Sequence record: OQ850288
Reading direction: 5' to 3' (one strand)
DNA length: 64,000 nucleotides
From: Escherichia phage vB_EcoM_ULIM9
In this document: piece by piece, positions 48,462-49,877 of the stretch
How the letters are laid out: every line of letters begins with the position of its first letter
Position numbering within the stretch: position 1 is the first letter of the stretch
Position numbers and translations under genes: made by a program
The notes under the pieces: generated by a model
What the model was told of the DNA's origin: nothing
Databases searched by the model: none
Seen by the model: only the letters and a program-made list of their open reading frames with translations

Positions 48462-49877
48462 TTACCAGATATAACGGTCAATCATTACGGCTTTGAGCAT
48501 TACACTGATTGGGTCAAACTTCTCACCACCAAGCAGAGCTTTTAAAGTAGCTGGAGAGAAACCAGATACCATTGCTACACCGTTATCCTTAACAGACACT
48601 TCGCAAGTACCATTACGGTTTGCTAAGTACCAGAATACCAGTTGTGGCATTTCGTATCCAGCTTTTTTGTACTTACTCTGAATTGCTTCAAAGTTTGTAC
48701 GACCATTAGCTCCATCAACCTGATTGAACTCCATATCAGAGAAGATGATAAGCTTACTTGGCATATCTTTCTGAGTCAAGTTGTTTCTTTTACCTACCTC
48801 AAGAATGCGGTCAAAAGCTGCCTGTAAGTTAGTTGAGCCATATTCAACGTGTCGCATCACCTGACGATGACGGTTTCGTAAATCACCACTCAGTTCAATG
48901 AAGTGAGGGTTTGTTGAATAAACCATCAACTCATCCTTAAAGCAACCTGTATTGCGTTCTGCTACATACAAGGCAAGTGATACACCAATATCAAGGGCAG
49001 TGATTGAACCAAGATTCACCCAAGACATTGAGCTTGAAACATCAGTCATACACAAGATGTTCTCACCTTCTGCCATCCAGTTTGGTAGTGCTTTCCACTG
49101 CTCATTGGCAACATCTGCATTACCATGCTTGATAGACTTAATCACATCGTATGGATAAACAGCACCAGCGTTAATCTTAGACTCACCCTTTGAGAGTGAT
49201 TCGATGTAAGCTTTGTAGCGTTCTCCATCTTTATGGTTAAAGAGTTTTTGGTAACGTGCAGCAGCAAGTGAAGGAATCTTACTGTAGTCAATCTTACCAA
49301 ACTCATTAGCAGAGATTTTTTGCTCAACTGTATCAGATAGTGCAGACAACAGTGTGCGGTACTCTTTCTCACTCAAGTTGGCAAACTTGCAGAAACGTTT
49401 TACAAACTGTTTGTGACGTGGTTTGACTCGTGGTAACCACTTGGCTGCCAAACCTGCTGTTGCAGGGTCTAGTAATGCTGCTTCTAAATGCTTGAAGGCA
49501 TCTGTCTCGAAACGAGTACCTACGAAGATTTTGAAGTCATCAAAACGACCAAGTTCTGCAATCTTATCCATAATGCGAAGAACCTGTGTAGGCTCTAAAA
49601 CTTTATCTTCAACTGCTTGAAGCAAAACTGTTCTGAAGGCTTTACGCTCACCCATACCTTCTCGTACATCTCGCATATGCAGTAAAATACGAACTGCAAC
49701 ATCAACATCCTCACGCAAAGCTTTGTAGAACAGGTCTGGTAAGATTTCTACATTGCTACGGCTTGAGCCAGCGGCTTTGTAGAAGTCTACCAGAGCAGAC
49801 ATTGATGAAGTATGGTTTACAGCACCATTTTCAGTTCGACCTGCATGAAGGTGCGCATGTTTAAATAATTCGCTCAT
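48462..49877 (-). CDS. von Willebrand factor A (vWA) domain protein with large N-terminal domain
   Basis: 471 aa; MIDAS-like motif LCMTDVSSSMS about 280 aa in, followed by a Rossmann-like region; N-terminal 270 aa of unknown function. Confidence 0.6.
   Translation of the reverse strand: MSELFKHAHLHAGRTENGAVNHTSSMSALVDFYKAAGSSRSNVEILPDLFYKALREDVDVAVRILLHMRDVREGMGERKAFRTVLLQAVEDKVLEPTQVLRIMDKIAELGRFDDFKIFVGTRFETDAFKHLEAALLDPATAGLAAKWLPRVKPRHKQFVKRFCKFANLSEKEYRTLLSALSDTVEQKISANEFGKIDYSKIPSLAAARYQKLFNHKDGERYKAYIESLSKGESKINAGAVYPYDVIKSIKHGNADVANEQWKALPNWMAEGENILCMTDVSSSMSWVNLGSITALDIGVSLALYVAERNTGCFKDELMVYSTNPHFIELSGDLRNRHRQVMRHVEYGSTNLQAAFDRILEVGKRNNLTQKDMPSKLIIFSDMEFNQVDGANGRTNFEAIQSKYKKAGYEMPQLVFWYLANRNGTCEVSVKDNGVAMVSGFSPATLKALLGGEKFDPISVMLKAVMIDRYIW

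What the first reader, a model, noticed from the sequence alone, without database searches (positions are those of the whole stretch)
48462..49877. vWA-domain protein directly upstream of the tRNA array: possible Ro60/TROVE-like RNA-binding module
The 471-aa protein combines an uncharacterised 270-aa N-terminal domain with a C-terminal vWA domain bearing a MIDAS-like DxSxS motif (TDVSSSMS). It is co-oriented with and immediately precedes the tRNA array, which contains several non-canonical tRNA-like elements. Ro60/Rsr proteins have this domain order (TROVE then vWA) and bind tRNA-like Y RNAs that are often encoded next to them, including in some phages (recalled, not searched). I cannot confirm a TROVE fold by eye, so this is a hypothesis, not a call.
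Basis: inference. Interest (0 to 1): 0.6.

Follow-up and report, generated by a model that had tools for sequence, protein, structure and literature searches.

The report
Phage Ro60-like protein with Y-like RNAs
This Felix-O1-type phage gene encodes a divergent relative of the Ro60 RNA-binding ring protein, and the tRNA array next to it hides four unannotated small RNAs (one a permuted tRNA mimic) that look like its Y-RNA partners, a pairing that recurs in many unrelated phages.

Summary

What is apparently new is the RNAs. Four elements (E1-E4, 47345-48129, minus strand) share a covarying terminal helix and a UACAGCAA box. E4 adds a V hairpin, T-arm, closed 7-bp acceptor hairpin and D-arm, which is the YrlA layout.

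Covariance models built from them hit only the gene's strand:
- 54 of 81 distant viral loci, with 61 of 103 clean hits within 300 nt of the gene;
- 42 of 80 loci from cellular genome assemblies;
- nothing in the T5 tRNA region, which lacks the gene.

Some hits are sub-threshold Rfam YrlA matches. A canonical TROVE phage (Forza) carries the CGAA-type box instead.

This is a new variant of a known kind. RNA binding is inferred, not shown.

The parts
48462..49877 (-). Gene for a 471-aa divergent Ro60-like protein (Pfam DUF2828 + DUF7788); ortholog of Bas63 gp130
49068..49877 (-). N-terminal ~270 aa: all-helical TROVE-like repeat domain. Invariant basic or polar residues include R40, R69, D70, R72, R78, R111, K146 and W147.
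48465..49064 (-). C-terminal vWA domain (aa ~272-471) of the Ro60 type
   Evidence: DUF7788 E 1.6e-43. vWA_Ro60 PF25045 matches 11 of 51 family members, best E 4.7e-4. A profile of the family touches Ro60 1yvp at the MIDAS region, E 0.89. hhalign to Forza Ro aligns DVSGSM with DVSGSM.
49029..49043 (-). MIDAS motif D279-V-S281-S-S283
   Evidence: Read directly from the translation. Invariant, together with T349 and D381, in 51 homologs.
49917..49946 (-). Sigma70-like promoter upstream of the gene (TTGACA-18-TAAAGT)
   Evidence: Consensus scan only, 10 of 12 matches.
48322..48442 (-). Two sigma70-like promoters (48442-48414 and 48351-48322), plus a 12-bp hairpin right after the stop codon; likely start of the tRNA/Y-RNA transcription unit
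   Evidence: Consensus scan and sequence read. Function is inferred.
48051..48129 (-). E1, short Y-like RNA (terminal helix + UACAGCAA box + variable hairpin). It begins 4 nt after tRNA-Glu and ends 8 nt before tRNA-Met.
   Evidence: Motif search gave 4 hits against 0.08 expected. Fold. Covariation. Model R2 35.1 bits, E 2e-4. Conserved in 9 of 9 Ounavirinae loci and in Bas63.
47893..47962 (-). E2, short Y-like RNA between tRNA-Met and tRNA-Asn
   Evidence: R2 39.5 bits, E 1.8e-5. The outer helix is UUAC/GUAA here and UUGC/GCAA in SUSP2, L011 and L012.
47490..47569 (-). E3, short Y-like RNA, 58 nt after tRNA-Asp
   Evidence: R2 30.2 bits, E 0.0027.
47345..47482 (-). E4, long YrlA-like RNA: terminal helix, UACAGCAA box, V hairpin, T-arm (loop UUCGAUU), closed 7-bp acceptor-like hairpin, U8-G9, and D-arm (A14, G18G19, A21)
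   Evidence: Single-sequence fold. RNAalifold consensus with 2 compensatory pairs. R2 113.5 bits. Cross-phage covariation in 30 of 32 pairs. Relatives reached from it are sub-threshold Rfam YrlA matches. An opposite-strand 52-aa ORF (47251-47409, plus strand) overlaps it; its Bas63 counterpart is annotated bas63_0137.
43617..48295 (-). Co-oriented tRNA array (21 ARAGORN tRNAs) in which E1-E4 are embedded
   Evidence: The same order is seen in VpaE1, SUSP2, Sf17 and Bas63.

Best explanation
The gene encodes a divergent Ro60 homolog: a TROVE-like helical ring fused to a Ro60-type vWA/MIDAS domain. Sequence models file it under DUF2828/DUF7788. The adjacent tRNA array encodes four unannotated small RNAs, E1-E4. 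They are probably co-transcribed with the tRNAs from the promoters just downstream of the gene. Because E1 and E2 sit within 3-10 nt of flanking tRNAs, tRNA-processing enzymes would release them (inferred). Each RNA closes its 5' and 3' ends into a conserved helix that is followed directly by a near-invariant single-stranded UACAGCAA box. I propose this helix-plus-box is the docking site for the Ro-like ring. It would be analogous to the terminal stem and GGUCCGA / GNCGAA motif through which Ro60/Rsr binds Y RNAs (inferred by analogy and from co-occurrence). The variable part would act as an adaptor or gate: a tRNA mimic in E4, and simple hairpins in E1-E3 as in Salmonella YrlB. It would present the RNP to tRNA-recognising or RNA-decay enzymes of the host, as Y RNA tethers Rsr to PNPase and as phiLo Ro60-Yrl RNPs bind and attenuate PNPase (analogy only). 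The biological output is manipulation of host RNA metabolism and defence. Shown by others for the 98%-identical Bas63 gp130: it is specifically required on hosts carrying the Ppl defence, and it protects T7 when transplanted. Shown here: the fold, the RNA structures and their covariation, and the strand-specific, position-specific co-occurrence of this protein family with this RNA family. Not shown: expression of the RNAs, binding, or any role of the RNAs in the Ppl phenotype.

For: RNA in the window. The 5' motif occurs 4 times against 0.08 expected, always on the gene's strand. All four elements fold alike. In the terminal module 5 of 11 pairs show double-sided changes, with a score of 0.47 against 0.08 or less when slid. 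The E4 consensus fold has compensatory changes in the acceptor-like hairpin.

Across phages. Models R1 and R2 find full-length matches only on the gene's strand, 150 of the 150 hits parsed. After removing tRNA overlaps, 61 of 103 clean hits lie within 300 nt of the gene. Hits occur in 54 of 81 distant loci, including 22 of 46 loci that have no tRNA. In 23 diverse long elements 30 of 32 pairs covary, with a score of 0.80 against 0.13 or less when slid. In 46 short elements the inner helix is 91-100% paired and the box is near-invariant. G-U pairs are frequent, which argues for an RNA-level, strand-specific structure.

Replication, controls and links. The pairing replicates in 42 of 80 loci from cellular genome assemblies, with 69 of 69 hits on the gene's strand. 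The negative control, the T5 tRNA region, gives a best score of 17 bits. Four elements are full-length sub-gathering Rfam YrlA matches, 29.6-39.1 bits, E from 4.7e-5 to 0.025 in the 67-kb search. Box and protein type co-vary: the TROVE-type Forza phage has the CGAA box and scores 52 bits on Rfam YrlA.

Literature. Bas63 gp130 genetics. phiLo Ro60-Yrl-PNPase. YrlA definition.
Against: No RNA-seq, binding or structural data exist for E1-E4. Pairing of RNA and protein rests on co-occurrence.

gp130 alone, from a plasmid or inside T7 (which lacks E1-E4), restores plaquing on Ppl hosts. The Bas63 'gene 137' insertion, whose ORF overlaps E4, is neutral on the Ppl host (+0.55 to +0.73) and on the Ec67 host. 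So the one known phenotype does not need E4, and perhaps needs no phage RNA at all. Redundancy among E1-E4, or use of host RNAs, is possible but untested, and the exact insertion site within g137 is unknown to me.

27 of 81 distant viral loci gave no hit at E<=1 within 6 kb. Pfam TROVE does not match, and Rfam YrlA does not see E4. The covariation alignments are model-fitted, and model E-values are rough by the tool's own description. The outer 3-4 bp helix is weak outside Ounavirinae, at 50-73% paired.
Confidence: 0.68

Rival explanations
1. The protein has the Ro60 fold but works as a stand-alone anti-defence protein. For example, it might bind Ppl or a host factor through its MIDAS face, or sponge a host RNA. 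E1-E4 would then be unrelated to it, serving the tRNA array itself or another protein.
For: gp130 alone rescues T7 and Bas63 on Ppl hosts. Disruption of the ORF overlying E4 is neutral on Ppl. The vWA/MIDAS domain is a classic protein-protein interaction module and is invariant. 27 of 81 distant loci have no detectable element.
Against: This does not explain why the RNA family tracks this gene across unrelated phages and cellular contigs. All hits are on its strand, there is about 12-fold enrichment within 300 nt, and it occurs even where no tRNA array exists. It also does not explain why the box changes with the protein family. Solved Ro60 homologs bind adjacent Y RNAs.
Confidence: 0.2
2. E1-E4 are punctuation or regulatory elements of the tRNA operon, such as processing signals, attenuators, promoters or terminators. 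Alternatively they are a repeat spread by duplication. In either case they are not trans-acting RNP components.
For: They sit between tRNAs, and E1 and E2 lie within a few nucleotides of tRNA ends. Four paralogous copies exist. Single-sequence folding z-scores are modest, -1.3 to -1.9.
Against: None matches the sigma70 or intrinsic-terminator scans. The same module flanks the Ro-like gene in 22 loci that have no tRNAs. E4 carries a full tRNA-elbow mimic like YrlA, with cross-phage covariation. The T5 tRNA array has none.
Confidence: 0.08
3. The Ro60 resemblance is a modelling artefact or mere convergence of a helical-repeat domain next to a generic vWA domain. On this view the protein belongs to another vWA-partner family, such as a chelatase-like or structural one.
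For: There is no Pfam TROVE hit. No PDB sequence hit passes threshold. hhalign probability is only 15%. Helical repeats can give inflated fold scores.
Confidence: 0.04

Closest known systems
Bas63 (Escherichia phage JohannRWettstein) gp130, PhageMaP preprint 10.1101/2024.10.10.617714
   Same: It is the ortholog: 460/471 identical, with the same position upstream of the same tRNA order. It has already been described as structurally similar to Ro60, as a Ppl counter-defence gene transferable to T7, and with the speculation that some 'tRNA genes' may be Y RNAs.
   Different: The preprint does not identify any Y RNA. Here the candidates are located: E1-E4, and in Bas63 L090 42066-42912. They are not among the annotated tRNAs but lie between them. 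E4 sits under the mis-called ORF bas63_0137. The preprint's own fitness table shows that this ORF is dispensable on Ppl.
Bacterial Rsr (Ro60 ortholog) with YrlA/YrlB, as in the Salmonella rsr-yrlBA-rtcBA locus and Deinococcus Rsr-Yrn1 (Chen et al. 2014, PMC4201824; Rfam RF02553)
   Same: A ring plus vWA protein is encoded within a few kb of, and on the same strand as, small RNAs that have a 5'/3' terminal stem. There is a long form with a permuted tRNA-like domain (V, T, closed acceptor, D) and short forms without it. In Listeria phage LMTA-34 the homolog also neighbours RtcB and RNA ligase genes.
   Different: The protein is not recognised by Pfam TROVE. The RNA box is U-W-C-A-G-C-A-A rather than GNCGAAN0-1G. 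Rfam YrlA scores are 0-39 bits against a gathering score of 69. The protein is shorter, 471 aa against about 530. Here the RNAs are embedded in a phage tRNA array.
Phage TROVE-type Ro60 with Y-like RNAs: Thermus phage phiLo Ro60/Yrl1-2 (PMC12135203; PDB 9KOP, 9L5Y), the mycobacteriophages of Chen 2014, and Gordonia phage Forza gp165
   Different: Those proteins are canonical TROVE + vWA_Ro60 (Forza E 6e-47 and 1.3e-62), and their RNAs carry the CGAA-type box. The window's family is the DUF2828 type with the CAGCAA box.
Pfam DUF2828 (PF11443) / DUF7788 (PF25043); PHROG 850 'RNA-binding protein'; SEA-PHAGES 'Ro-like RNA binding protein' (e.g. Gabriela gp52, LeBron gp53)
   Same: The window protein is a full member, matching at E 2.4e-29, 1.6e-43 and 9e-183. 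Mycobacteriophage members are 30-34% identical over the full length.
   Different: These labels are annotations by remote homology. No partner RNA is annotated in these records. Here a YrlA-like RNA is found right after Gabriela gp52 (L008 7506-7634, 71.8 bits).

Membership tests
Ro60 / Rsr (TROVE + vWA) protein family | Sequence match to the TROVE domain model (Pfam PF05731) | tested here: not met
   There is no TROVE hit at E<=1 for the window protein, or at E<=5 for any of 51 family members. A canonical phage Ro (Forza gp165) hits it at 6e-47.
Ro60 / Rsr (TROVE + vWA) protein family | Helical-repeat ring domain followed by a vWA domain, superposable on solved Ro60 structures | tested here: met
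Ro60 / Rsr (TROVE + vWA) protein family | Ro60-type vWA domain with a MIDAS motif | tested here: met
   DxSxS plus T349 and D381 are invariant. Pfam vWA_Ro60 matches 11 of 51 members, best E 4.7e-4, though not the window protein itself. hhalign aligns the MIDAS motifs.
Ro60 / Rsr (TROVE + vWA) protein family | Y-type RNA encoded nearby on the same strand | tested here: met
   E1-E4 lie 333-1117 nt downstream on the same strand. The pattern is general across homologs.
Ro60 / Rsr (TROVE + vWA) protein family | Binds Y RNA on the outer surface, binds misfolded RNA ends in the central cavity, and cooperates with exoribonucleases | not testable with these tools
   This needs RIP/CLIP, EMSA and structures.
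YrlA (Rfam RF02553, Y RNA-like) | Score at or above the Rfam gathering threshold (69 bits) | tested here: not met
   E4 is not reported even at E<=5. Related elements in L019 and L004 score 29.6-39.1 bits, full length. The Forza YrlA scores 52.1 bits.
YrlA (Rfam RF02553, Y RNA-like) | Terminal stem formed by the 5' and 3' ends, enclosing a permuted tRNA-like domain in the order V, T-arm, closed acceptor-like stem-loop, D-arm | tested here: met
   RNAalifold consensus. 30 of 32 pairs show double-sided changes across 23 diverse elements. tRNA-invariant nucleotides are read directly from E4: U8, A14, G18, G19, A21 and the T-loop UUCGAUU.
YrlA (Rfam RF02553, Y RNA-like) | GNCGAAN0-1G motif near the 5' end (Chen et al. 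2014) | tested here: not met
   That position holds U-W-C-A-G-C-A-A instead. The GGCGAAGG inside E4 overlaps the T-stem and reads GGAGAAGG in VpaE1 and L010, so it was not counted.
YrlA (Rfam RF02553, Y RNA-like) | Within about 4 kb of a Ro60 ortholog and on the same strand | tested here: met
   E4 lies about 980 nt from the gene on the same strand. 150 of 150 parsed hits and 69 of 69 hits are on the gene's strand.
YrlA (Rfam RF02553, Y RNA-like) | Carries tRNA modifications and is a substrate of tRNA enzymes (TruB, DusA, RNase P) | not testable with these tools
   This is experimental.
Pfam DUF2828 / DUF7788; PHROG 850 | Scores above the curated thresholds | tested here: met
   102.9 bits against a cutoff of 29, and 148.9 bits against 27.1. 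PHROG 850 at 609 bits, full length.
Anti-Ppl counter-defence protein (Bas63 gp130) | Orthology to the genetically tested protein | tested here: met
   98% identity with identical synteny. The phenotype itself is taken from the preprint: Ppl-host fitness -2.9 to -3.7, against +0.6 to +0.7 on the Ec67 host.

The most novel reading that the evidence does not exclude
DUF2828/DUF7788 proteins together with 'CAGCAA-box' Y-like RNAs form a second, previously undescribed Ro60/Y-RNA-type ribonucleoprotein system. The RNAs come in a long tRNA-mimic form and a short hairpin form. The system would be widespread in tailed phages of Gram-negative, Gram-positive and actinobacterial hosts, and in many bacterial and archaeal genome assemblies. 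Its RNA recognition code would have co-diverged from the canonical TROVE/CGAA pair. Because it occurs in E. coli phages (Felix O1 group, Bas63) whose protein already has a defence-related phenotype, it would give a genetically tractable system for asking what Ro-Y RNPs do. It would also imply that the eukaryotic DUF2828 proteins are unrecognised Ro paralogs.
Probability: 0.55. Interest if true: 0.78.

Novelty: new variant of a known kind. Interest (0 to 1): 0.66.

Why it matters
Ro60 and Y RNAs are conserved from bacteria to humans and are a major lupus and Sjogren autoantigen, yet their core function is still debated. Bacterial work is limited to a few species. The protein side of this finding is already known: it is annotated as Ro-like or RNA-binding, and Bas63 gp130 is a Ppl counter.

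What the analysis adds is the missing RNA side. It gives concrete, testable Y-RNA candidates in a model coliphage lineage, and a defined helix-plus-box that can be mutated. It also shows that the pairing is general, in about half or more of sampled homolog loci in two independent collections.

There are practical consequences for annotation too. The elements are unannotated, mis-annotated as tRNAs, or covered by spurious opposite-strand ORFs in public phage records. They also matter for reading phage tRNA arrays and counter-defence. If binding is confirmed, E. coli, which has no Rsr of its own, becomes a clean host for dissecting a Ro-Y RNP.

Tried and rejected
1. Sequence searches of the protein against PDB gave nothing (phmmer). 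A family profile gave only a sub-threshold Ro60 hit, E 0.89. This is insufficient alone, and the question was resolved by fold search.

2. Rfam on the window found no Y_RNA or YrlA match, at gathering thresholds or at E<=5. Taken alone this would have wrongly suggested that there is no Y RNA.

3. At first I took GGCGAAGG in E4 to be the YrlA GNCGAA motif. I rejected this because it overlaps the T-stem and is not conserved: it reads GGAGAAGG in VpaE1.

4. Promoter or terminator explanation for the repeated motif: none of E1-E4 is picked up by the consensus scans.

5. The predicted 4-bp 'anticodon-like' stem CUUA/UAAG in the single-sequence fold of E4 is not conserved in SUSP2 or Sf17. It was left out of the model.

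6. A simple regex for 'AG-stem-box-stem-CUG' is not specific: it gives 4 chance hits inside coding sequence in the window. Only covariance-model results are used.

7. 31 weak model hits overlap tandem tRNAs, an artefact that Chen et al. also warned about. They were removed.

8. Script slips: an offset error dropped the outer helix (fixed), a fuzzy-regex script timed out, and a file-name assumption failed.

9. The Chen 2014 supplement with YrlA alignments is not held. I used Rfam's YrlA model and its printed consensus instead.

10. Literature searches for DUF2828, for YrlA with phage, and for tmRNA with Felixounavirus found no report of these RNAs.
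Full report
OBSERVATION. The ORF at 48462-49877 (minus strand) is real and encodes 471 aa. It contains D279-V-S281-S-S283. Together with T349 and D381 these residues are invariant in 51 homologs at 40-89% identity, so the MIDAS motif is complete. ARAGORN finds 21 tRNAs at 43617-48295, all on the same strand. The first begins 166 nt after the stop codon. The window is a Felixounavirus, about 97% identical at the nucleotide level to phages REP9 and VpaE1. Consensus scans place a sigma70-like site upstream of the gene and two more between the gene and tRNA-Pro. 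The gene and the array are therefore co-oriented neighbours rather than necessarily a single transcript.

THE PROTEIN. Pfam assigns DUF2828 (E 2.4e-29) and DUF7788 (E 1.6e-43), not TROVE. PHROG 850, labelled 'RNA-binding protein', matches end to end. tblastn finds the family in 709 phage records: Escherichia, Salmonella, Vibrio, Campylobacter, Listeria, Staphylococcus, Enterococcus, Bacillus and Mycobacterium phages among others. These are annotated variously as RNA-binding protein, Ro-like RNA binding protein, vWFA protein, DUF2828 protein or hypothetical protein. Sequence searches against PDB give nothing significant.

No member of the family touches Pfam TROVE even at E<=5, but 11 of 51 touch the dedicated vWA_Ro60 model. 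hhalign against a canonical phage Ro (Forza gp165) is weak but collinear: E 0.0018 over 219 columns, aligning KINAGAVYPYDV with RISKGRIHPFNV and DVSGSM with DVSGSM. I conclude that this is a divergent sister family of Ro60. It has the same architecture and fold, but it is outside the TROVE sequence model.

Its supplementary fitness table shows g130 at -2.9, -3.3 and -3.7 on the Ppl host, but +0.6 to +0.7 on the Ec67-retron host. Chen et al. 2014 (PMC4201824) defined YrlA RNAs next to TROVE proteins in 254 bacteria and 22 phages. The phiLo paper (PMC12135203) shows a phage Ro60 binding two phage-encoded Y-like RNAs and host PNPase.

THE RNAs IN THE WINDOW. Reading the minus strand shows a repeated motif. 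AGAAGACCNNNTACAGCAA occurs four times, against 0.08 expected, and all copies are on the gene's strand inside the array. Each copy is paired 30-110 nt downstream with NNGGTCTGG.

All four elements fold the same way. There is an outer 4-bp helix, then an AGA bulge opposite a G bulge. An inner 7-8-bp helix (AGACCnn/nnGGUCU) follows, and after its 5' strand comes single-stranded UACAGCAA. The elements are:
- E1, 48051-48129;
- E2, 47893-47962;
- E3, 47490-47569;
- E4, 47345-47482.

Nine of nine Ounavirinae loci, from three genera, carry exactly these four elements at the same positions, and so does Bas63. In the shared module, 5 of 11 pairs change on both sides. The covariation score is 0.47, against 0.08 or less for slid registers. 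My extraction script required pairing, but the pairing-blind search found the same set.

E4 additionally contains a V hairpin, a T-arm with loop UUCGAUU, and a closed 7-bp acceptor-like hairpin with two compensatory pairs. U8-G9 and a D-arm with A14, G18G19 and A21 follow. This is the permuted-tRNA layout that defines YrlA. None of the four elements is flagged as a sigma70 promoter or an intrinsic terminator. E1 and E2 lie 3-10 nt from the neighbouring tRNAs, so tRNA end-processing would release them; this step is inferred.

GENERALITY. A covariance model of E4 (R1) was searched against 81 distant homolog loci at 29-47% protein identity: 6 from GenBank phages and 75 from IMG/VR. It returned full-length hits only on the gene's strand. 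Examples:
- Klebsiella phage phi1_175008: two in tandem in the unannotated gap between the gene and the first tRNA.
- Mycobacteriophage Gabriela: in the gap after its 'Ro-like' gp52.
- Vibrio phage Va3.

A second model built from these hits (R2) gave 153 hits at E<=1. All 150 that I could parse lie on the gene's strand. After I removed 31 weak hits that overlap tandem tRNAs, 103 clean hits remained in distant loci. Of these, 61 lie within 300 nt of the gene, which is about 5% of the space searched. 54 of 81 loci have at least one hit at E<=1, and 32 of 81 at E<=0.01. The 54 include 22 of the 46 loci that have no tRNA within 6 kb.

About half of the elements are long, with the tRNA-like domain, and half are short, with helix and box only. 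Across 23 strong long elements, 30 of 32 pairs show double-sided changes. 89.9% of cells are paired, against 38-46% when slid, and the score is 0.80 against 0.13 or less. That alignment is model-fitted. Across 46 distinct short elements the inner helix is 91-100% paired with 2-5 pair types per position, and the box U-W-C-(A/C)-G-C-A-A is nearly invariant.

The result replicates in the GTDB species genomes: 274 homolog loci were found, and in the best 80 there are 69 hits at E<=0.05 in 42 loci. All are on the gene's strand and most lie within 800 nt upstream. As a negative control, 48 kb of phage T5 has 25 tRNAs and annotated tRNA-like stable RNAs but no homolog. Nothing there scores above 17.3 bits.

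RELATION TO CANONICAL YrlA. Rfam holds YrlA (RF02553, gathering score 69 bits). It does not report E4. It does give full-length, sub-threshold matches to four elements found by my models, in L019 and L004, at 29.6-39.1 bits and E from 4.7e-5 to 0.025 in the 67-kb search. This links the family to YrlA independently of my models.

The canonical consensus has ...CGaAUGC... (the GNCGAANG motif) immediately after the 5' strand of the terminal stem. The family described here has YCAGCAA at that position.

Gordonia phage Forza provides the comparator. Its Ro protein is canonical: TROVE at 6e-47 and vWA_Ro60 at 1.3e-62. It sits directly upstream of a co-oriented tRNA array that contains a tmRNA and a YrlA scoring 52.1 bits on Rfam. 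My model aligns that YrlA only with the CAGCAA box gapped out; the sequence there is UUAUCGAAUUG. Protein type and RNA box therefore co-vary, which is what a recognition pair would show. I have examined only one TROVE-type phage locus myself. The rest of the comparison rests on the Rfam consensus and on the papers.

MECHANISM AND ITS LIMITS. The best reading is a phage Ro-like ring that binds helix-plus-box Y-like RNAs. Their variable modules, a tRNA mimic or simple hairpins, would act as adaptors or gates towards host RNA-processing or RNA-decay enzymes, and the outcome would be counter-defence.

Shown here: the fold, the RNA structure and covariation, and the strand- and position-specific co-occurrence. 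Shown by others: the Ppl phenotype of the ortholog.

Inferred: expression and processing of the RNAs, binding, and the partner enzymes.

Important counter-evidence exists. gp130 alone works in T7. In addition, the insertion in 'gene 137', whose ORF overlaps E4, is neutral on the Ppl host. The anti-Ppl activity therefore does not require E4, and it may be independent of RNA or may use host RNAs. LeBron gp53, a cluster L1 homolog, is moderately toxic when overexpressed in M. smegmatis. That is compatible with interference in host RNA metabolism but is not diagnostic.

VERDICT. The protein's Ro60 likeness, and the idea of hidden Y RNAs, are already known. The actual RNAs, their distinct box, and the breadth of the pairing appear unreported in the literature I could search. 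I class this as a new variant of a known kind, with moderate to high interest.

Noticed in passing
window 46876-47110 (- strand); tag-like ORF starts at 47029: A tmRNA-like element sits inside the tRNA array. A near-consensus sigma70 promoter (47107-47079, 11 of 12 matches) is followed by ...AAAAUAAAU GCAAACGACAAUGUUUUUCUGGCAGUAGCU UGA UAG, which translates to ANDNVFLAVA**. From memory, the E. coli tmRNA tag is ANDENYALAA. Rfam tmRNA hits are weak (RF00023 15.9 bits, E 0.0028; permuted tmRNA 21 bits) and ARAGORN calls nothing. The ~230-nt stretch is 89-99% conserved in all Ounavirinae loci. The only two substitutions in the ORF are GAC>GAT (synonymous) and TGA>TAA (stop to stop), and the hairpin after it shows compensatory changes. 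No canonical 5' acceptor strand was found. Gordonia phage Forza has a bona fide tmRNA at the equivalent place next to its Ro gene.
   Followed up: partly
window 46796-46876 (- strand): An aberrant tRNA-like sequence is not called by ARAGORN (Rfam tRNA-Sec model 23 bits). Its acceptor stem is CGGGGCG/CGCCUCG, with a G3:U70 pair and A73, which are alanine-identity-like. It has a UCU anticodon-like loop, an odd D region and a long variable region. Only some strains share this version (L012-L014). VpaE1 and Bas63 have an annotated tRNA-Arg(UCU) in this slot.
   Followed up: partly
window 47251-47409 (+); L090 42749-42901 (bas63_0137) and 43450-43590 (bas63_0142): Small opposite-strand ORFs overlie E4 and the tmRNA-like element, and in Bas63 they are annotated as hypothetical proteins. 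They are probably spurious calls over RNA genes. The PhageMaP scores for 'gene 137' are therefore effectively scores for an E4 disruption.
   Followed up: partly
window 49959-50330 (- strand): The 123-aa ORF just upstream of the Ro-like gene is DUF5681 in RefSeq annotation and has a basic N-terminus, KGQSGNPSGRPKGSRNK. It is a conserved co-oriented neighbour in all Ounavirinae loci. Its Bas63 ortholog (gene 129) has negative fitness on both the Ppl host (-2.4 to -2.5) and the Ec67 host (-1.5 to -1.7), so it is generally important rather than Ppl-specific.
   Followed up: partly
window 47127-47199 (- strand): A low-scoring tRNA-Lys(UUU) is missed by default ARAGORN. It is found with relaxed thresholds and by Rfam at 32.9 bits (47136-47198). 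VpaE1, SUSP2, Sf17 and Bas63 annotate a tRNA-Lys here.
   Followed up: yes
L009 (Listeria phage LMTA-34) 5959-12521: The homolog lies between a tRNA array and a cluster of RNA-repair genes: a metal-dependent phosphohydrolase, RtcB ('tRNA splicing ligase'), a tRNA amidotransferase and an RNA ligase. This is reminiscent of the bacterial rsr-yrlBA-rtcBA operon. A short CAGCAA-box element lies just upstream of the gene (5704-5771).
   Followed up: no
L091 (phage T5) 10285-13950, 20849-21567: T5's tRNA region carries eight annotated 'stable RNAs with unknown functions', some of them called tRNA-like, and has no Ro-like gene in the 48 kb examined. The CAGCAA-box model does not hit them, so they belong to a different class of array-embedded small RNA.
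   Followed up: partly
L092 4501-4554 and records H56, H58, H59: In several Gordonia phage records the YrlA-like element is annotated as 'tRNA-Leu', and in others it is left unannotated. This is an example of Y RNAs mis-filed as tRNAs in phage arrays.
   Followed up: partly
window 44977-45534 (- strand) and 43792-44742 (- strand): Two protein-coding ORFs of 185 aa and 316 aa interrupt the tRNA array on the same strand. Relatives annotate them as a membrane protein or holin and as a hypothetical protein. The 316-aa ORF as listed overlaps tRNA-Phe, tRNA-His and tRNA-Gln, so its true start is probably internal; VpaE1 annotates 735 nt.
   Followed up: no
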